Virus record (IMG/VR): IMGVR_UViG_2690316243_000006 | Strand: one strand, 5' to 3' | DNA length: 39,562 nucleotides | Source: a virus | Lineage: Duplodnaviria; Heunggongvirae; Uroviricota; Caudoviricetes | Part shown: positions 483-39,223 of the stretch, piece after piece | How the letters are laid out: every line of letters begins with the position of its first letter | Numbering within the stretch: the stretch's first letter is position 1 | Notes under the pieces: generated by a model | Told to the model about the DNA's origin: nothing | What the model saw: only the letters and a program-made list of their open reading frames with translations | The model's database searches: none | Program-made: the position numbers and the translations under genes

Positions 483-1220
483 TCATTCACTCTCTTTCAA
501 ACCAGTTTTAACTGTTTGTGGTTTTGGGTAAGGCTGGACTTTGAATAGCTTTGTGTTAAGGCGTTTTCTGGCTCTCTTGTCCAGAAACCGGATGTAACGA
601 AACTGACGGAATTTATGAACACTGGCTCTGTCGATATTAGCCCGCAGATGTTCACCTCGCTGTCCTCCTCGTTTGATTGCATTCTTGCAAATCTCGTGAT
701 ACCACTCGCCATCAAGTTCATAGAATGTTGTTTCATGACTGCCTACATAATCAAAATTGCTTGCCTGGTACACGACACCAAGACAGCCACAACGCTCATC
801 TGCAAACGACTGAACCCACTGCACCTGCGGATAAAGTTGTCTGATTAGTTTGAGCGCGTAACTGATTGCCCTTGATTCGGAGTTTCTCGGCATACAGTCA
901 TGCAGCCATAACCGGTTAAGCTCCATATATTCGCGGTTCTGCGTGCCAGTTACGACGCGTGCACCATTGTTTGGATTAAGGGCATAACCCCATTGCATTA
1001 CGCCAACCAGCTCCCGTTCTGAAAATATGCCCAGATGAAGGTAGGAATTATTTACGAAACGATGGCTGTAATGTTTATTGACGACGACCAGCCGGGCCAG
1101 CCAGCAACTTATTGTCTCAACCCGTAACTCACGGGAGCCATAACCGACGATATTGTCGTTATAGTGAATAAGTTCAGGCGTGCTGATGATACGGGATGTA
1201 ACTTGCTTTCTGTTCCCCAC
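483..1220 (-). CDS. mom: Mom-like DNA modification protein (start tentative: GTG at 1220 preceded by AGGAAA; the open frame extends to 1415)
   Basis: Position at the phage right end immediately downstream of, and overlapping, a Com-like zinc-finger gene, as in Mu com-mom; assignment is by synteny, not motif recognition. Confidence 0.55.
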
Positions 1221-1374
1221 GACAGGATTTCCTTGTGTATGTGGGGTGCTCTGTGGCGCTCTGAGATGTGATTTGATTGAGGGTTTTACAGCGCGGACAT
1301 TTAACTTCCAGATAACTGAAGCTGGCTCGTGCCAGTAGCTTGTTACAATGTCGGCACCGTATGTTTCGATACAT
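1174..1374 (-). CDS. com: Com-like zinc-finger translational activator of mom
   Basis: [34 protein letters not shown]...[15 protein letters not shown] resembles Mu Com (CxxC...CPRC zinc finger); ATG at 1374 preceded by GGAGG; 3' end overlaps the mom frame. Confidence 0.8.
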
Positions 1375-1520
1375 GGCCGCATAACCTCCTGCTTTGTTGT
1401 TGATATCTTTATCACTCAATCGATCGACAAAAACGATCGATTTGATTTATTTAATTGATACAACAAATAACACGAAATGTCATTAGCGAAAATTTATGAG
1501 TTTGATCACTAATTTTAAAC
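1375..1520 (-). promoter_or_regulatory. Upstream control region of com-mom with three GATC (Dam) sites
   Basis: GATC at 1422-1425, 1435-1438 and 1504-1507 in an AT-rich leader; in Mu, mom transcription is controlled by Dam methylation of upstream GATC sites and by C protein. Exact promoter not resolved. Confidence 0.45.
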
Positions 1521-1630: not shown

Positions 1631-1924
1631 ATGGACAATCATGTAACGACGAGAAATCGAAAAATGATTGAAAATGCGGAAATCTATAATGATTATTTTT
1701 CCGATTATTCAGATGCCTGCAAATACAGTTCGAGTGCGGGAGAGTTCATATGCTTCAACTTTTTTATTAAATCTTATGTTTTTCCTCCACAGCAAGAAGA
1801 TGGAGGTGTGCCACCTCCTGAAATCACTTTGCACCGTATAGCCTCCGTCTCAATGATGGAGCAACAGGCTAATGAGCTGTATAGCATTCTGGGAACGATT
1901 CTACAAAAGCGTGAATCGGACTAA
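1631..1924 (+). CDS. Hypothetical protein (97 aa) in AT-rich cargo, divergent from com-mom
   Basis: ORF with AGAGG upstream of the ATG; no recognisable motif. Confidence 0.4.
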   Translation: MDNHVTTRNRKMIENAEIYNDYFSDYSDACKYSSSAGEFICFNFFIKSYVFPPQQEDGGVPPPEITLHRIASVSMMEQQANELYSILGTILQKRESD

Positions 1925-2091: not shown

Positions 2092-2346
2092 TTACATCAT
2101 GGTACTGTCAGTTCCGGGCTGAGCCGGGTCTGGTTGCTCTGGCTGCGCGTCGGTTTTCGGCTCATTATCAGCATCACTGGCCGCAACTGCTGGCCCAATA
2201 AGTTTTGCCAGCACTTCATCAACGTAAGTGTCGATTTGTGCCTCAAAATCCTTGCGGACCTGCGCTTTCAGCAACTTATTTACTTCACCGGAATACAGTG
2301 CCTGTTTTACCAGGTCTTCAGTGACGGTGCCTTTAATTTCTGGCAT
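2092..2346 (-). CDS. Hypothetical small acidic helical protein (84 aa)
   Basis: Strong RBS AAGGAGGA 7 nt upstream of the ATG; protein-like composition; downstream of the 60-aa membrane protein gene. Confidence 0.5.
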   Translation of the reverse strand: MPEIKGTVTEDLVKQALYSGEVNKLLKAQVRKDFEAQIDTYVDEVLAKLIGPAVAASDADNEPKTDAQPEQPDPAQPGTDSTMM

Positions 2347-2381: not shown

Positions 2382-2564
2382 TCAGGGCTGGGTCGGGTCT
2401 TTTGGGAGCGGAGTTACCTGCGCTGTTTTACTGAGTTTTTCAGCTGCTGCGTCCTCAATTTTGCGGCGAACATAATTTCTGATGGCCTTATAACCACCAC
2501 TCACCAGATATAACGCACATACTGCCGTGCAGAAATACAATAAAATAAGCTGTAAAAATGTCAT
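2382..2564 (-). CDS. Small single-pass membrane protein (60 aa; true start ATG at 2564, the ORF-track start at 2576 is a TTG)
   Basis: GGGAGGG RBS before the ATG; N-terminal hydrophobic helix LQLILLYFCTAVCALYLV followed by a basic tail. Confidence 0.5.
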   Translation of the reverse strand: MTFLQLILLYFCTAVCALYLVSGGYKAIRNYVRRKIEDAAAEKLSKTAQVTPLPKDPTQP

Positions 2565-2579
2565 TATCCCTCCCAATTA

Positions 2580-2620
2580 TTGACATGGTGTTGACACCGG
2601 TAATATCTGTTAGGTAAAAA
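2580..2620 (+). promoter_or_regulatory. Candidate sigma70 promoter on the + strand
   Basis: TTGACA at 2580-2585 and again at 2591-2596; TAATAT at 2601-2606; imperfect dyad GGTGTtgACACC at 2587-2598. Confidence 0.3.
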
Positions 2621-2660
2621 GGTGCACTGCATTTTTTGCTTTGGATATAACGATCTTTTT

Positions 2661-2701
2661 GCCGCCGGTTTCTTGTTTTCCCTTACCGGCGGCATTTTTT
2701 T
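2661..2701 (+). terminator. Candidate intrinsic terminator on the + strand
   Basis: GCCGCCGGT ... ACCGGCGGC stem (9 bp, 15-nt loop) followed by a run of seven T at 2695-2701; on the minus strand the stem is followed by AAAAAG, so it is not a canonical terminator for the esterase gene. Confidence 0.45.
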
Positions 2702-2708
2702 ATCCTGC

Positions 2709-4763
2709 TTACGCGTTATTCACTTCCACCACGATACTGTCAATCAGTACCGGGTAAGTCGCATTTTTAGTGATATCGGTCACGCGCAACTTGTCTGCCG
2801 TAAACGTGCCGACCGGAGACTGCGACAGCATGAATGGTGTCCCGTCCTTACCATCAATGACCGGCGTCACCTCAATACTGTTGTTACCGGCAAAACGGAA
2901 GCCCAGCGTATGCCATTCGTTATTAAATGCGCCGAATGACCCCAGCTTCGTGTTCTGCGCCGTGTTTCCTTTGTGATACATCACGTTAAGGTCTGTGGCA
3001 TCGCTCTGTACGTAGAACGATGCCAGCAGGTTATGACCGGCATTTCCTTCCAGAGTAACCCCTTGCGGCAGGGCAGAAACCGGCCAGTACAGCGCCAGTG
3101 CGTACTGATTAGCCGTAAGCGCGCCATCGAGTTTAAAACGACAACTGACAAGACCACCTTTACCCAGCAGGTCCGCACCATTACCAGCATCATGCTCAAG
3201 GTACCAGGGGGCTCTTCCTGTTTCCTTGGTCAGTTTCATTGCCTTACCCCCGCTGGCTCCGGCATCATCCACGATTTGAGCCTTGCCACCTCCGGCAGCC
3301 CAACCCTGTGGTGTCAACCGTCCTTCAGACTCAGATGCCCGGTAAGCAAATAGCGTACTCATCGTCGTGGTGTCTGCGGGTGGCGTGGACGGTTTTGATG
3401 GTGTATCAGGTGACGGCTTCTCATCCGGTGGTGTCACGGTCTGCCCGCGCATCAGTTCAGCCGTGCGCCCTGCATGGAGCATAATAGCTGAGGCCAGACG
3501 GTCTGAAATGACGCCCCTGCGTGCCCATGAGCTGAAATGGCTGTCACGCTGTGTCGAAACAAAACTGCCCTGGGTTCGGGATGCTGCACCGTAATACCCG
3601 ACAGCCACAATATCCGGGTCTTCCGCCGGAGCATTCGTTGGCGTGCTCTGTCCATTCTCATCCGTCAGGAACGGTACAAAGAAAATTTTCTGTGCTTCCT
3701 TGCCTTTGTAGCCACCGTATACTGCCTCATATTTATCGGTGCCAGCGTTTTTCCAGTAATACGTGGTATCACCGCAAATCCACGGCACCGTGGTGGCATT
3801 TCCACTCACGCACTGCGCAGCAAGCGGAGCCAGGTCAGTTCTGAACTGCTGAACCATGGCCGTGAATAAACTATTATGCTGCTGGCTTCCTGAGGCAAGG
3901 TCTGCCTCTCCCTGCATCCAGACCACAGCCAGAAGTTTGTTTTTCGGGTTTTTCGCCAGCGCGACTTTGGTGCGGCTTACCAGGTCCTGATACAGAGGTT
4001 TACCGGCCCCCCAGCGTGAAGAATCAGCGGAAGCACCGCTGGCCTCACTGAATGAGCCGTCGGCTCCAGTGGTGAATGCTGACCCGCCACGACAACAGGG
4101 CACCAGAAGTATCCCGGCATTCTGTGGGATATAGGGAAGCAGTTTTTTGGCAATATGCAACCCCTGACCGACAGTCCCGTACTGGCCTTTTGCCAGATCA
4201 GCTTTCGGGTGGTTTATCCCGCTCATATCCTGAACATCATGCAGGCAGTGGTCTGCCGGAATGATGTCGTTGTATGTACACGACGTACCGTTGGGCGTTA
4301 CCGTACTGCGGCGTGCCAGTTGCTTAATGCGTGGGTCCGGGCGGTCAAACGAATCCGGTAACGGCAGCCCCTCGCCGTAGGCCATGCCATTTGACTGACC
4401 CGCGAGAATGACAACAAAGTAATATTCCGGCTCTGAACTGCTGCCATTCGTGCTACCGGAAGGCCCGGCGTTATCCGGTGCATTCCAGTCGGAGGGCGTG
4501 AGCGTTCCGGCCACGTCAGATGTGATTGGAATGATGCCAGTCACGCCTGAACTGGTGATTTCTGCACTGGGATTACCGGATACCGGCATTACCCATAATG
4601 GCTCTTTCGTGCTGAAGCGGATCACGCAGTCTGCGAAGGTGATCCCCCCTTTATTACCCGAAGGGCGGAAAGGGCTTTCAATAAATGCCACCGTGCCACC
4701 GGCAACCTTGACTGAAAACTCTCCGGGCATGGCGGAGAGCATTTTCCACTTGGAGTCTGACAT
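2709..4763 (-). CDS. Sialate O-acetylesterase-like protein (SASA/SGNH esterase domain, Pro/Thr-rich linker, C-terminal lectin-like domain); resembles prophage NanS-p proteins
   Basis: GQSNGMAYGEG and WMQGEADLASG motifs typical of the SASA family; linker TPPDEKPSPDTPSKPSTPPADTT; about 200-aa C-terminal domain; own promoter region after the gin terminator. Confidence 0.7.
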   Translation of the reverse strand: MSDSKWKMLSAMPGEFSVKVAGGTVAFIESPFRPSGNKGGITFADCVIRFSTKEPLWVMPVSGNPSAEITSSGVTGIIPITSDVAGTLTPSDWNAPDNAGPSGSTNGSSSEPEYYFVVILAGQSNGMAYGEGLPLPDSFDRPDPRIKQLARRSTVTPNGTSCTYNDIIPADHCLHDVQDMSGINHPKADLAKGQYGTVGQGLHIAKKLLPYIPQNAGILLVPCCRGGSAFTTGADGSFSEASGASADSSRWGAGKPLYQDLVSRTKVALAKNPKNKLLAVVWMQGEADLASGSQQHNSLFTAMVQQFRTDLAPLAAQCVSGNATTVPWICGDTTYYWKNAGTDKYEAVYGGYKGKEAQKIFFVPFLTDENGQSTPTNAPAEDPDIVAVGYYGAASRTQGSFVSTQRDSHFSSWARRGVISDRLASAIMLHAGRTAELMRGQTVTPPDEKPSPDTPSKPSTPPADTTTMSTLFAYRASESEGRLTPQGWAAGGGKAQIVDDAGASGGKAMKLTKETGRAPWYLEHDAGNGADLLGKGGLVSCRFKLDGALTANQYALALYWPVSALPQGVTLEGNAGHNLLASFYVQSDATDLNVMYHKGNTAQNTKLGSFGAFNNEWHTLGFRFAGNNSIEVTPVIDGKDGTPFMLSQSPVGTFTADKLRVTDITKNATYPVLIDSIVVEVNNA

Positions 4764-4833
4764 CGTCTTTTCTGCCTGTTTCTGAATTAAACAGAGTCAG
4801 AATAGCGACCGCTGAAAAATATGTGTTTTGCGG

Positions 4834-4868
4834 AAATTCAAAAAAGCGTCACGGTACTTTTGGTGACG
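4834..4868 (-). terminator. Intrinsic terminator at the 3' end of gin
   Basis: Minus-strand hairpin CGTCAC/GTGACG (4847-4868, overlapping the gin stop codon) followed by CUUUUUUGAAUUU. Confidence 0.55.
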
Positions 4869-5421
4869 GAGCTGGTGAGGCAGGAAAATAACGATAAAGG
4901 GTGGAAAGGCCAATATCAAATATCAGTGCGATTTGTTTACGGGACTCGCCATTAGCCAGCAAACGGGCGATTTGCTCCCGCTCTTTCTCTGTCAGTTTCT
5001 GAGGTCTGCCGCCATGACGCCCCTGAGCACGGGCAGCAGCAAGACCCGCGCGTGTACGTTCAATAATGAGTTCCCGCTCCATTTCCGCCAGCGCGCCCAT
5101 TATATGGAAAAAGAAACGTCCCATGGGAGTGGATGTATCAATATTGTCCGTAATGCTGCGGAAGTTAACGCCGCGTTGCCGGAGTTCTTCTGTTAAAAGG
5201 ACAAGGTGCTGCATACTGCGTCCAAGGCGATCCAGTTTCCAGACCAGCAGGGTATCCCCTGGCCGGAGTCGCTTTAATGCGCGTTTAAGTCCGGGACGCT
5301 CCCTTGTCTTACCGCTTATTCTGTCTTCGAAAAACAGCTCACATCCTGCACATTCCAGCGCATTTCTTTGTAGCGCCGTATTCTGGTCATTTGTTGACAC
5401 CCTGATATACCCAATCAGCAT
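4849..5421 (-). CDS. gin: Gin/Hin/Pin/Cin-family serine DNA invertase
   Basis: MLIGYIRVSTNDQNTALQRNALE... (catalytic Ser in RVSTNDQ), 190 aa, C-terminal HTH; adjacent to the invertible tail-fibre segment. Confidence 0.9.
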   Translation of the reverse strand: MLIGYIRVSTNDQNTALQRNALECAGCELFFEDRISGKTRERPGLKRALKRLRPGDTLLVWKLDRLGRSMQHLVLLTEELRQRGVNFRSITDNIDTSTPMGRFFFHIMGALAEMERELIIERTRAGLAAARAQGRHGGRPQKLTEKEREQIARLLANGESRKQIALIFDIGLSTLYRYFPASPAPSPKVP

Positions 5422-38704: not shown

Positions 38705-39223
38705 ATGGAGTTTGATATGATCCTTGACCAAGAATGGATCCTTGCCAGTGACTTGTTGGGGGTTGGAGGTCTTCCTTCATCTCTGGCTGGGCTTCATAAA
38801 CGAGCAAAAAATGAAGGATGGGAAAAACGTTCGGTAACTACACCTGGTATCAGAGGGAGAGCATTTGCCTACCGTTTAAGCGACTTACCTGCACATGTTG
38901 TTTCCATCATTACAGGTAGTGCAGAAATAAAACACCAGCCCCCTCAAAAGAACGGTGGCAATAGCGAGTTGCTCGAACTCATCGACACTTTGAGCCAAGA
39001 AGAGCAAGAATTAGTTATTTACACCTTGAGAAGGAAAGGGGTAGAAAAATTGCTGGAATTCTGCAATCAAGAGAATCAAGAGTTGATCGCTTTAACAGGT
39101 ATTCGACGCCTGGCAGCATTGAGCCTTAATAATTTATCAGATCAAAAGGTTAGAGAGATTTTCGAGGGAGATGAAACCAAGGATCATCATTTCAATTTAA
39201 CCCATAAAGAAGCCAAAGCGTAA
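38705..39223 (+). CDS. c: Mu c-like repressor
   Basis: 172 aa; N-terminal ...LPSSLAGLHKRAKNEGWEKR domain homologous to the transposase N-terminus; divergent from ner. Confidence 0.7.
   Translation: MEFDMILDQEWILASDLLGVGGLPSSLAGLHKRAKNEGWEKRSVTTPGIRGRAFAYRLSDLPAHVVSIITGSAEIKHQPPQKNGGNSELLELIDTLSQEEQELVIYTLRRKGVEKLLEFCNQENQELIALTGIRRLAALSLNNLSDQKVREIFEGDETKDHHFNLTHKEAKA

What the first reader, a model, noticed from the sequence alone, without database searches (positions are those of the whole stretch)
2577..2702. Promoter-to-terminator unit on the + strand: possible small RNA antisense to the membrane-protein leader
Two TTGACA hexamers and a TAATAT sit upstream of a GC-rich hairpin followed by seven T on the + strand, with no credible + strand coding sequence between them. 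That predicts a transcript of roughly 80-90 nt, complementary to the region just upstream of the 60-aa membrane-protein gene. This resembles a type I toxin-antitoxin layout, but the promoter spacing is non-ideal and the hairpin loop is long.
Basis: inference. Interest (0 to 1): 0.4.

Follow-up and report, generated by a model that had tools for sequence, protein, structure and literature searches.

The report
Prophage small RNA gene behind esterase
The flagged stretch is very probably a real small regulatory RNA gene of about 75 nt, the counterpart in a Mu-like prophage of an Hfq-bound RNA (EcOnc33) already detected in E. coli O157, so it is a new copy of a known kind and probably not a toxin-antitoxin pair.

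Summary
The + strand carries two TTGACA hexamers, a TAATAT, a 10-bp GC-rich hairpin and a run of seven T. No conserved ORF lies between them.

Comparison with 29 distinct versions of this intergenic region corrects the promoter. The conserved elements are TTGACA (2591-2596), an 18-nt spacer and TAAAAA (2615-2620). TAATAT is not conserved. The predicted RNA runs from A2626 to about 2700, roughly 75 nt.

The window is a Mu-like E. coli prophage. It carries a sialate-esterase (NanS-p type) - DUF1378 - DUF826 module between the invertase and com/mom, and the unit lies between the esterase stop and the DUF1378 start.

The 81%-identical unit in O157 Sakai prophage Sp6 is EcOnc33. Published data show it in 5 of 5 Hfq crosslinking sets, as a band of about 71 nt on a northern blot, and in RNase E-CLASH reads that match the sequence. 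The same slot in the Mu-like prophage Sp18 holds EcOnc37. PasA and PasC lie just 3' of other esterase alleles, and Esr41 is a distant relative.

The best reading is an Hfq-dependent, trans-acting sRNA with a 5' seed. The arcA start region is a candidate target. The type I toxin-antitoxin reading is geometrically possible but has no support.

Novelty: new member of a known kind. Interest is low to moderate.

The parts
2591..2596 (+). -35 hexamer TTGACA, the copy likely to be functional
   Evidence: Invariant in all EcOnc33-type alleles: either this copy, or the single copy in alleles that lack the 11-bp duplication. It lies 17-19 nt upstream of an A-rich -10 in all 12 compared units.
2580..2585 (+). 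Upstream TTGACA copy, part of the 11-bp tandem duplication TTGACATGGTG / TTGACACCGGT. Probably not the promoter in use.
   Evidence: Reads TTGATA, TTAATA or TCGACA in most alleles. The duplication is absent in the 1604D011 and ST865 types.
2601..2606 (+). It lies inside the spacer and is not conserved.
   Evidence: Reads TAATAC or TAATGC in other alleles. It is only 15 nt from TTGACA#1 and 4 nt from TTGACA#2.
2615..2620 (+). -10 element TAAAAA
   Evidence: TAAAA is invariant across 17 distinct alleles. The same TAAAAA lies 17-18 nt after the -35 in the EcOnc33, EcOnc37 and Stx2a-phage units.
2626..2701 (+). Predicted sRNA of about 75 nt, the EcOnc33 orthologue. Start is at A2626 and the end falls within the U-tract.
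   Evidence: The 5' ends of Esr41 (start of the Rfam model match) and PasA (5' end reported from RNA-seq coverage) lie 30 nt after the -35 end. The EcOnc33 CLASH read begins at the homologous base. Covariance model R1 matches 2626-2701 at 84.6 bits, but the window sequence was part of that model. The weak Esr41 match spans 2621-2703.
2626..2647 (+). 5' single-stranded seed region ACUGCAUUUUUUGCUUUGGAUA
   Evidence: CCTGCAT(G/T)TTTTG is nearly invariant among alleles. In EcOnc33 this segment is the half of the CLASH hybrid that is ligated to the arcA start region. The predicted duplex of the window allele with arcA -17..+5 is -14.7 kcal/mol.
2660..2694 (+). Intrinsic terminator hairpin: 10-bp stem (2660-2669 with 2685-2694) and 15-nt loop. 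The invariant loop core CTTGTTTTCCC lies at 2672-2682.
   Evidence: about -20 kcal/mol. The stem is invariant within the allele group. Stems differ in a compensatory way between allele groups. The loop core is invariant in 17 alleles.
2695..2701 (+). U-tract (T7): end of the terminator and presumed Hfq-binding 3' tail
   Evidence: T6-8 is present in every allele. The - strand has no U-tract after the hairpin, so the terminator works in one direction only.
2709..4763 (-). Convergent upstream gene: SASA / DUF6645 sialate O-acetylesterase (NanS-p type), 684 aa
   Evidence: Pfam SASA plus DUF6645. RefSeq annotation of a 100%-identical genome. The esterase 3' end adjoins the unit in 78 of 80 viral loci.
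2382..2564 (-). Divergent neighbour: DUF1378 small membrane protein of 60 aa. Its Shine-Dalgarno complement lies at 2568-2574.
   Evidence: Pfam DUF1378 at 109 bits. RefSeq CDS. Its start codon is 62 nt from the predicted sRNA start, with the sRNA promoter in between.
2092..2346 (-). DUF826 protein of 84 aa, the last gene of the module
   Evidence: Pfam DUF826. Same gene order in Sp6, Sp18 and Stx phages.

Best explanation
The unit is an independent sRNA gene. It is an allele of the prophage sRNA detected in E. coli O157 Sakai as EcOnc33.

Transcription starts from TTGACA(2591)-N18-TAAAAA(2615) at about A2626. It ends at the hairpin and U7 terminator at about 2700, giving an RNA of about 75 nt. 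That RNA has an unstructured, U-rich 5' part (the seed), a U-rich stretch directly 5' of the terminator, and a long 3' U-tail. This is the usual anatomy of an Hfq-dependent sRNA.

It is probably made in the lysogen. There it most likely binds Hfq and base-pairs in trans with host mRNAs through its 5' end. The leading candidate target is the arcA translation start region, which would be repressed.

The gene travels as part of an esterase-sRNA-DUF1378-DUF826 module found in lambdoid prophages and, as here, in Mu-like prophages.

Shown: the anatomy, its conservation, and orthology to an RNA that was detected experimentally. Inferred: expression and Hfq binding of this particular copy, action in trans, and the arcA target.
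For: Context.
- The window is 100% identical to E. coli chromosomes in which the neighbours are annotated mom, com, DUF826, DUF1378, DUF6645/SASA esterase and recombinase.

Orthology to EcOnc33.
- The 148-nt intergenic region is full-length in 355 genomes. In 326 of them it is 81% identical, inside an O157 lambdoid prophage. In Sakai that prophage is Sp6, between ECs_1527 (esterase) and ECs_1528.
- Tree et al. 2014, Table S2, lists EcOnc33 in Sp6 on the antisense strand: 5 of 5 Hfq-CRAC sets, a rho-independent terminator, and a northern band of about 71 nt.
- I calibrated the coordinate shift between genome versions at +134 to +142, using AsxR, EcOnc03 and Esr41. This places the EcOnc33 peak on the body of the Sp6 unit.
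- Independently, the CLASH reads assigned to EcOnc33, 'CCTGCATGTTTTGCTTTGGAT' and 'CCTGCCCCGGCGGCC', are the Sp6 intergenic sequence.

The Mu-like counterpart.
- Sakai's Mu-like prophage Sp18 has the same gene order. EcOnc37 maps to the same slot, and its CLASH reads match that sequence.

Shared architecture.
- All 12 compared units share TTGAC(A/T), a 17-19 nt spacer, an A-rich -10, a 63-94 nt body, and a GC hairpin with U7-8. The set comprises the window unit, four other EcOnc33-type alleles including EcOnc33 itself, two EcOnc37-type units, the Stx2a-phage unit, Esr41, PasA, a unit next to PasA, and PasC.
- The lengths predicted this way reproduce the reported sizes of Esr41 (71 vs 74), PasA (84 vs 85) and PasC (77 vs 79).
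- Among 17 distinct alleles, the -35, the -10, the seed, the stem and the U-tract are conserved, while the linker varies.

Candidate target.
- The top EcOnc33 CLASH partner is ECs5359, which is arcA, at its start codon: 5 reads, both replicates, both orientations, FDR 2.7e-4.
- The window allele keeps a -14.7 kcal/mol duplex over arcA -17..+5, and 69 of 2000 shuffles reach that value.

Distant similarity.
- Rfam's only match covering the unit is Esr41, end to end but below threshold.
Against: - There are no expression data for this strain or this allele.
- The -10 TAAAAA lacks the conserved final T, and the consensus scan finds no promoter.
- The terminator loop is long (15 nt).
- The window allele differs from EcOnc33 at seed positions 1 and 8. 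The predicted arcA duplex weakens from -19.3 to -14.7 kcal/mol and is only marginally better than shuffles.
- The arcA link for EcOnc33 rests on 5 hybrid reads and has not been validated.
- Within the allele group the stem never varies, so there is no covariation support.
- The northern size of EcOnc33 (about 71 nt) is somewhat shorter than the 78-81 nt predicted for that allele.
- In a Mu-like prophage the transcriptional state of the convergent esterase gene in lysogens is unknown.
Confidence: 0.8

Rival explanations
1. Type I toxin-antitoxin-like pair. The RNA acts in cis as an antisense repressor of the DUF1378 small membrane protein by pairing with the leader of its mRNA.
For: - DUF1378 is a 60-aa protein with a hydrophobic N-terminus and a charged tail.
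- The RNA is perfectly complementary to the RNA just upstream of that gene if the gene is co-transcribed with the esterase.
- In all 77 DUF1378 loci in which the gene start could be located, the unit is present directly upstream.
- No - strand promoter for DUF1378 was found in the intergenic region, so its mRNA would contain the complementary stretch.
Against: - The RNA (2626-2701) does not reach the Shine-Dalgarno sequence (2568-2574) or the AUG (2562-2564). The sRNA promoter lies between them.
- DUF1378 is a conserved late-operon gene just upstream of the holin gene in lambdoid phages, with no reported function or toxicity.
- Related sRNAs exist without DUF1378: PasA between an esterase and a holin gene, and Esr41 in SpLE1.
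- The characterised or profiled relatives bind or depend on Hfq and interact with RNAs encoded elsewhere.
- No Rfam antitoxin family matches.
Confidence: 0.07
2. The hairpin and T7 are only a protective terminator. It would stop stray + strand transcription, for example from the 97-aa ORF at 1631-1924 or from antisense promoters, from running into the esterase gene. The TTGACA motifs would be incidental.
For: - The terminator works in one direction, on the + strand, and sits 7 nt from the esterase stop.
- The consensus scan finds no promoter.
- The -10 is imperfect.
Against: - The TTGACA-N17/18-TAAAA arrangement is conserved across 17 alleles while nearby bases vary.
- The unit is kept in lambdoid prophages that have no + strand gene upstream.
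- A discrete RNA of about 71 nt was seen for the Sp6 orthologue, and a CLASH read starts at the predicted +1.
Confidence: 0.06
3. Cis-acting antisense element of the late or module transcript. In this reading its main role is pairing with the convergent esterase-DUF1378 read-through RNA, through RNase III cleavage or transcriptional interference, so that esterase expression is uncoupled from the downstream genes. Regulation of host genes would be secondary.
For: - Full complementarity to the intercistronic RNA is inherent in the geometry.
- The unit always abuts the esterase stop.
- PasA was found by RIL-seq to interact with the 3' ends of esterase mRNAs (motif table).
Against: - EcOnc33 and EcOnc37 were recovered bound to Hfq in lysogens. 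Late phage genes are normally silent in lysogens; that is general knowledge of lambdoid phages and was not tested here.
- The seed is the most conserved single-stranded part. Pure cis-antisense action would not require this, because any sequence there is complementary.
- CLASH partners of EcOnc33 are encoded elsewhere in the genome.
Confidence: 0.07

Closest known systems
EcOnc33 (E. coli O157:H7 Sakai, prophage Sp6; Tree et al. 2014 Table S2; Waters et al. 2017 Table EV7)
   Same: - Same slot, between the esterase stop and the DUF1378 start, on the antisense strand.
- 81% identity over the whole intergenic region.
- Same promoter (TTGACA-18-TAAAAA), the same seed apart from two bases, the same stem, the same loop core and the same U-tract.
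   Different: - Seed is ACUGCAUUUUUUGCU here and CCUGCAUGUUUUGCU in EcOnc33.
- The window has a 2-nt insertion in the linker and a loop 6 nt shorter.
- The host element is Mu-like here and lambdoid for EcOnc33. The window allele was found only in Mu-like context (10 of 10 informative viral loci).
- EcOnc33 has no assigned function and no Rfam family.
EcOnc37 (Sakai Mu-like prophage Sp18)
   Same: - Identical genomic layout: invertase - esterase - sRNA slot - DUF1378 - DUF826 - com - mom.
- Same promoter type (TTGACT-18-TAAAAA) and a terminator with U7.
- Hfq-bound in 5 of 5 sets.
   Different: - The RNA body is essentially unrelated in sequence and is about 94 nt long, with a UUUUCCUUUAUGGGUU motif like that of Esr41.
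- Model R1 scores it at only 15.7 bits.
Esr41 (Rfam RF02676; EHEC SpLE1/OI-43; represses chuA, cirA, bfr and LEE, activates motility)
   Same: - About 74 nt and Hfq-dependent.
- Promoter is TTGACA-18-A/T-rich -10.
- A U-rich single-stranded centre, then a GC terminator followed by UUUUUUUAU.
- It is the best Rfam match to the window unit, end to end. It matches the Stx2a-phage unit in the same slot more strongly: 29.8 bits, E = 0.0013.
   Different: - The score of 22.2 bits is far below the family threshold of 102.
- The seed differs (UUUUCUCCAUGGGG).
- Esr41 lies in SpLE1 next to iha, with no esterase or DUF1378 beside it.
PasA / PasC (EPEC E2348/69; Pearl Mizrahi et al. 2021; Zhu, Shabalina and Storz 2026 preprint) and their EHEC homologues EcOnc51/52
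   Same: - Hfq-dependent sRNAs of 79-85 nt, convergent with and directly 3' of a prophage SASA esterase.
- TTGACA promoter and a terminator with U7 that abuts the esterase stop in PasC.
   Different: - No detectable sequence similarity in the body.
- They follow a different esterase allele.
- At the PasA locus the next gene downstream is a holin gene and there is no DUF1378.
AsxR / AgvB 'anti-sRNAs' (Rfam RF02703, RF02702)
   Same: Short prophage sRNAs, Hfq-bound, with a variable 5' seed and a conserved terminator. They are antisense to the late operon in the moron region.
   Different: - They lie on the other side of the esterase gene, paired with STnc100/PasD.
- They are 51-60 nt long.
- Neither matches anywhere in the window at the Rfam thresholds.
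Type I toxin-antitoxin loci with antitoxins pairing in the leader (hok/sok, tisB/istR-1, zorO/orzO)
   Same: A small hydrophobic ORF with a small RNA gene on the opposite strand just upstream. The RNA is complementary to the 5' untranslated region.
   Different: - No evidence of toxicity.
- The RNA does not cover the translation start region.
- Relatives of the RNA occur without the ORF and act in trans.
- No match to any antitoxin RNA family.

Membership tests
EcOnc33-type prophage sRNA (no curated family; defined here by the Sakai Sp6 locus) | Located between the stop of a SASA/DUF6645 esterase gene and the start of a DUF1378 gene, on the opposite strand | tested here: met
   Window 2565-2708 lies between CDS 2709-4763(-) and CDS 2382-2564(-). 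The Sp6 layout is the same.
EcOnc33-type prophage sRNA (no curated family; defined here by the Sakai Sp6 locus) | Sequence homology over the whole unit | tested here: met
   BLASTN gives 81.3% identity over 148 of 148 nt, E = 6e-31. The alignments are collinear. Model R1 gives 84.6 bits, but the window sequence was in the training set, so that score is not independent.
EcOnc33-type prophage sRNA (no curated family; defined here by the Sakai Sp6 locus) | Intact promoter, 5' seed and intrinsic terminator | tested here: met
   The -35, -10, stem and U7 are identical to the consensus. The seed differs at 2 positions.
EcOnc33-type prophage sRNA (no curated family; defined here by the Sakai Sp6 locus) | Expressed as an RNA of about 70-80 nt and bound by Hfq | not testable with these tools
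   Known only for the Sakai orthologue.
Esr41 (Rfam RF02676) | Covariance-model score at or above the gathering threshold of 102 bits | tested here: not met
   22.2 bits, E = 0.2, over model positions 1-74. No match at the gathering threshold. Genuine Esr41 scores 108.6 bits.
PasA / PasC | Sequence similarity to the E2348/69 PasA or PasC genes (the published family was collected by blastn) | tested here: not met
   The PasA and PasC loci (L003, L004) are not matched by model R1, apart from a weak terminator-level hit on the unit next to PasA (15 bits, E = 0.86). The bodies do not align. Only position and architecture are shared.
AsxR / AgvB anti-sRNAs (RF02703, RF02702) | Rfam gathering score | tested here: not met
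   No match in the window. Controls in Sakai score 88 and 57 bits.
Type I toxin-antitoxin system | The small ORF encodes a toxic membrane peptide | not testable with these tools
   DUF1378 has a hydrophobic N-terminus, but no function or toxicity is on record.
Type I toxin-antitoxin system | The antitoxin RNA pairs with the toxin mRNA at or near its translation start, or at a documented standby or leader site | tested here: inconclusive
   The RNA is complementary to positions -62 to -137 relative to the AUG if the gene is co-transcribed. It does not overlap the Shine-Dalgarno sequence or the AUG. The 5' end of the DUF1378 mRNA is unknown.
Type I toxin-antitoxin system | The RNA and the toxin gene are inherited as an obligate pair | tested here: inconclusive
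   The unit is present in all 77 DUF1378 loci that could be examined. However, relatives of the RNA (PasA, Esr41) occur without DUF1378, and the esterase 3' end is an equally constant partner (78 of 80 loci).

The most novel reading that the evidence does not exclude
The space behind the prophage sialate esterase may be a mobile 'sRNA cassette slot'. It would move with the esterase between lambdoid and Mu-like phages, keeping its promoter and terminator while the seed is exchanged (EcOnc33, EcOnc37, an Esr41-like type and another allele type; PasA and PasC are known so far only behind lambdoid esterase alleles).

In this reading the EcOnc33-type alleles, including this one, repress translation of the global redox regulator ArcA through their 5' end. 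The invariant C/U-rich terminator loop (CUUGUUUUCCC) would be a second functional site. A Mu-like prophage would then retune the host's aerobic/anaerobic programme together with sialic-acid scavenging.
Probability: 0.25. Interest if true: 0.55.

Novelty: new member of a known kind. Interest (0 to 1): 0.3.

Why it matters
Prophage-encoded, Hfq-dependent sRNAs are a recognised way for phages to rewire pathogenic E. coli. Esr41, AsxR, AgvB and the Pas RNAs are examples. Most of the 55 candidates encoded in pathogenicity islands of O157 remain unannotated and unnamed, however.

This finding adds four things.

- EcOnc33 has a clear gene model: promoter, +1, seed and terminator.
- It belongs to a conserved slot shared with EcOnc37 and a further allele type in the same esterase-DUF1378 gap. 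PasA and PasC sit in the equivalent position behind other esterase alleles, and Esr41 is a distant relative that now lies elsewhere.
- The slot also occurs in Mu-like prophages, including those of non-O157 strains.
- A testable target (arcA) can be proposed from published hybrid reads.

In practice, genome annotation (RefSeq, Rfam) currently leaves this gene blank in several hundred complete E. coli genomes. It is an incremental result, not a new principle.

Tried and rejected
- Megablast of 2000-2800 against the phage collection found nothing. Only the more sensitive mode found Mu-like inserts and esterase 3' ends.
Taxonomic breadth beyond E. coli and Shigella phages was therefore not established.
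- I tested for covariation in the terminator within the EcOnc33-type alleles and found none. The stem is simply invariant.
- I tried to link the allele groups statistically with covariance model R1. The other groups' units were usually the best hit in their locus and at the right place, but with E = 0.014 to 4. Esr41, PasA and PasC were not hit. A sequence 'superfamily' is suggested but not demonstrated.
- I searched the prophage itself for complements to the sRNA. The best were 11-12 nt matches at the level expected by chance. These include one inside the repressor-like ORF at 38803-38813.
- I considered the 43-aa - strand ORF (2564-2695) and the + strand ORFs 2622-2939 and 2641-2757 as coding explanations. 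I rejected them because they are not conserved or are interrupted by the terminator.
- I considered a bidirectional terminator for the esterase gene. I rejected it because the - strand RNA has AAAAAG, not a U-tract, after the hairpin.
- A literature search for EcOnc33 in main texts found nothing. It appears only in supplementary tables.
Full report
**1. What is in the sequence**

On the + strand:
- TTGACA at 2580-2585 and again at 2591-2596. The two copies belong to an 11-bp tandem duplication, TTGACATGGTG / TTGACACCGGT.
- TAATAT at 2601-2606.
- TAAAAA at 2615-2620.
- A hairpin in which U2660-U2669 pair with A2685-A2694: 10 bp, nine of them in the run GCCGCCGGU / ACCGGCGGC, with a 15-nt loop.
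- Seven T at 2695-2701.

The esterase gene on the - strand stops at 2709-2711. The 60-aa gene on the - strand starts at 2564, with a GGGAGGG Shine-Dalgarno sequence at 2574-2568.

The consensus scanner lists neither a promoter nor a terminator here. Its rules require a 16-18 nt spacer, a T at the last -10 position and a loop of at most 8 nt.

The unit is nevertheless far from random. The fold has z = -3.8. A custom scan for a stable hairpin followed by at least six T finds only six sites on both strands of the 39.6-kb window, against 0.4 in shuffled sequence. This one has one of the two lowest fold energies and is the only long uninterrupted stem.

**2. Context**

The stretch 2000-2800 is 100% identical to several E. 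coli chromosomes. In those records the neighbours are annotated, from left to right in window orientation, as mom, com, a hypothetical gene, DUF826, DUF1378, a DUF6645/SASA esterase, a recombinase (invertase) and tail-fibre genes. Pfam confirms DUF1378, DUF826 and SASA plus DUF6645.

The window is therefore a Mu-like prophage. A NanS-p-type sialate esterase - DUF1378 - DUF826 module sits between its invertase and com/mom. The same three genes, in the same order, lie between stx (or Q) and the holin gene in lambdoid prophages. In both settings the module is read on the strand opposite to the flagged unit.

**3. Conservation corrects the promoter**

The 148-nt intergenic region is present full-length in 355 of 5426 complete E. 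coli genomes.

A search of viral contigs with DUF1378 returned 80 loci. In the 77 where the gene start could be located there were 29 distinct upstream regions, and every one carries a promoter-to-terminator unit on the antisense strand.

Seventeen distinct alleles belong to the same sequence group as the window. Their alignment shows the following.

| Element | Behaviour across alleles |
|---|---|
| TTGACA at 17-18 nt from the -10 | invariant |
| TAAAA of the -10 | invariant |
| 5' motif CCTGCAT(G/T)TTTTG | nearly invariant |
| Stem arm TGCCGCCGGTT | invariant |
| Loop core CTTGTTTTCCC | invariant |
| T-run | invariant |
| TAATAT | varies (TAATAC, TAATGC) |
| Upstream TTGACA | mostly TTGATA; the 11-bp duplication is missing in two allele types |

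The promoter is therefore TTGACA(2591-2596) - 18 nt - TAAAAA(2615-2620).

For Esr41 (start of the Rfam model match) and PasA (5' end reported from RNA-seq coverage), the 5' end lies 30 nt after the -35. Applied here, that gives +1 = A2626 and an RNA of about 75 nt. The same rule reproduces the known lengths of Esr41, PasA and PasC to within 3 nt.

**4. The orthologue has been seen experimentally**

The 81%-identical version lies in O157:H7 lambdoid prophages. In Sakai it is in Sp6, between ECs_1527 (esterase) and ECs_1528.

Table S2 of Tree et al. 2014 (PMC4104026) lists EcOnc33 in Sp6 on the antisense strand. It was found in five of five Hfq-CRAC data sets, has a rho-independent terminator, and gives a northern band of about 71 nt.

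That table uses an older genome version. I calibrated the offset to the current record with three sRNAs that Rfam locates exactly: AsxR, the AgvB-like EcOnc03, and Esr41. The offset is +134 to +142. This places the EcOnc33 peak on the body of the Sp6 unit.

Independently, the RNase E-CLASH tables of Waters et al. 2017 (PMC5286369) print reads assigned to EcOnc33: 'CCTGCATGTTTTGCTTTGGAT' and 'CCTGCCCCGGCGGCC...GCCGCCGGTTCTGG'. These are the Sp6 intergenic sequence, and the first begins at the predicted +1.

Sakai's own Mu-like prophage, Sp18, has the same layout as the window. EcOnc37 (five of five Hfq sets) maps to its esterase-DUF1378 gap, and its CLASH reads match that sequence.

**5. Relation to other named sRNAs**

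*PasA and PasC.* These RNAs of EPEC E2348/69 were validated by northern blot and show Hfq-dependent stability (PMC8550237). They lie convergent with, and directly 3' of, other alleles of the same esterase. At the PasA locus the next gene is a holin gene and there is no DUF1378.

*Esr41.* It has the same promoter spacing, length and terminator type. It is the only Rfam family that aligns over the whole unit. The score is 22 bits for the window and 30 bits (E = 0.0013) for the Stx2a-phage unit in the same slot, against a family threshold of 102.

*Links between allele groups.* A covariance model built from 14 EcOnc33-type alleles finds the other allele groups at the right place, but only at E = 0.014 to 4. 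It does not find Esr41, PasA or PasC.

The window unit is therefore a clear member of the EcOnc33 group. It is a positional and architectural relative of the others, not a demonstrated sequence relative.

*Context survey.* The window allele occurs only in Mu-like context (10 of 10 informative viral loci). Other EcOnc33-type alleles are mostly lambdoid (47 loci with a holin gene nearby, against 3 in Mu-like context). The module evidently moves between phage types.

**6. How it most likely works**

*Shown:* the anatomy, its conservation, and orthology to an Hfq-bound RNA.

*Inferred from established knowledge of Hfq-dependent sRNAs:* a GC terminator preceded by a U-rich stretch and followed by a long U-tail forms the Hfq-binding module, and the unstructured 5' end is the seed. 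The window RNA has GAUCUUUUU directly 5' of the stem, a U7 tail, and a 5' part that folds weakly.

*Candidate target.* The top EcOnc33 hybrid in CLASH is with ECs5359 at its start codon: 5 reads, both replicates, both orientations, FDR 2.7e-4. ECs5359 is arcA. The hybrid pairs sRNA nucleotides 2-21 with arcA -17..+5, which covers the Shine-Dalgarno sequence and the AUG.

| Allele | Duplex with arcA (kcal/mol) | Shuffles reaching it |
|---|---|---|
| Sp6 (EcOnc33) | -19.3 | 14 of 2000 |
| Window (A1, U8 instead of C1, G8) | -14.7 | 69 of 2000 |

Repression of arcA translation is a reasonable but unproven hypothesis, and it is weaker for this allele.

**7. The toxin-antitoxin reading**

By geometry, the RNA is antisense to whatever - strand RNA crosses the gap. 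No - strand promoter for DUF1378 was found, so the gene is probably co-transcribed with the esterase.

Four points argue against a toxin-antitoxin pair.
- The RNA ends its complementarity 52 nt before the Shine-Dalgarno sequence.
- DUF1378 has no known toxicity.
- Relatives of the RNA live without DUF1378.
- The seed is conserved, which a purely cis-acting antisense RNA would not need.

I rate this reading at about 0.07. A cis effect on the module transcript is a separate possibility at about 0.07. A mere protective terminator is at about 0.06.

**8. Unexplained**

The 11-nt loop core CUUGUUUUCCC is invariant in all 17 alleles, although neighbouring loop and linker bases vary. A few single-read CLASH hybrids involve this part together with G-rich partners. 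It may be a second interaction site, but I could not resolve this.

Within the allele group the stem shows no covariation because it never changes.

**9. Verdict**

The unit is a new member (allele and host element) of a known kind of prophage-encoded Hfq sRNA. Interest is 0.3.

Noticed in passing
window about 480-39500 (whole window): The window is essentially one complete Mu-like prophage. It has mom (483-1190) and com (about 1174-1419) at one end and a Mu-repressor-like ORF (38705-39223, +) at the other. The esterase-sRNA-DUF1378-DUF826 module is inserted between the invertase (4849-5421) and com/mom, exactly as in O157 Sakai prophage Sp18 (L013).
   Followed up: partly
window 4764-4848 and the whole window: Rfam finds no STnc100/PasD-type or AsxR/AgvB-type sRNA anywhere in the window. 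In lambdoid prophages these flank the 5' side of the same esterase gene (L002, L009, L011, L012). Only the sRNA on the 3' side travelled with the module into the Mu-like phage.
   Followed up: partly
window 2672-2682: The terminator-loop core CTTGTTTTCCC is invariant in 17 distinct alleles while adjacent loop and linker bases vary. No conserved ORF explains this. It may be a second functional site of the RNA.
   Followed up: partly
window about 1420-1446 (- strand, upstream of com): A GATC-rich palindrome, AAATCGATCGTTTTTGTCGATCGATT, gives weak sub-threshold IS102 RNA matches in Rfam. From general knowledge of phage Mu, clustered GATC sites upstream of com/mom suggest Dam-methylation-dependent control of the mom operon.
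   Followed up: no
window 1174-1419 (-): The com-like gene is annotated as a frameshifted pseudogene in the 100%-identical RefSeq record. The mechanical ORF list shows an 81-aa ORF with a TTG start that carries the Com zinc-ribbon motif (CxxC...CxxC).
   Followed up: no
window 38803-38813 (+): An 11-nt perfect complement (AGCAAAAAATG) to the sRNA seed lies inside the repressor-like ORF. About two such 11-mers are expected by chance, so it is probably meaningless.
   Followed up: yes
window 1631-1924 (+): A 97-aa ORF (annotated as hypothetical in RefSeq, with no Pfam family) lies between DUF826 and com on the opposite strand. Sp18 has a different gene of 465 nt (ECs_4996) at this position.
   Followed up: no
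L003 2745-2900 (E2348/69 prophage PP2, - strand): Directly downstream of PasA there is a second complete promoter-terminator unit: TTGACA, an AAAAAT -10, a hairpin and U7. It abuts the esterase stop. This probably explains the 236-nt 'minor' PasA species reported by Pearl Mizrahi et al.
   Followed up: partly
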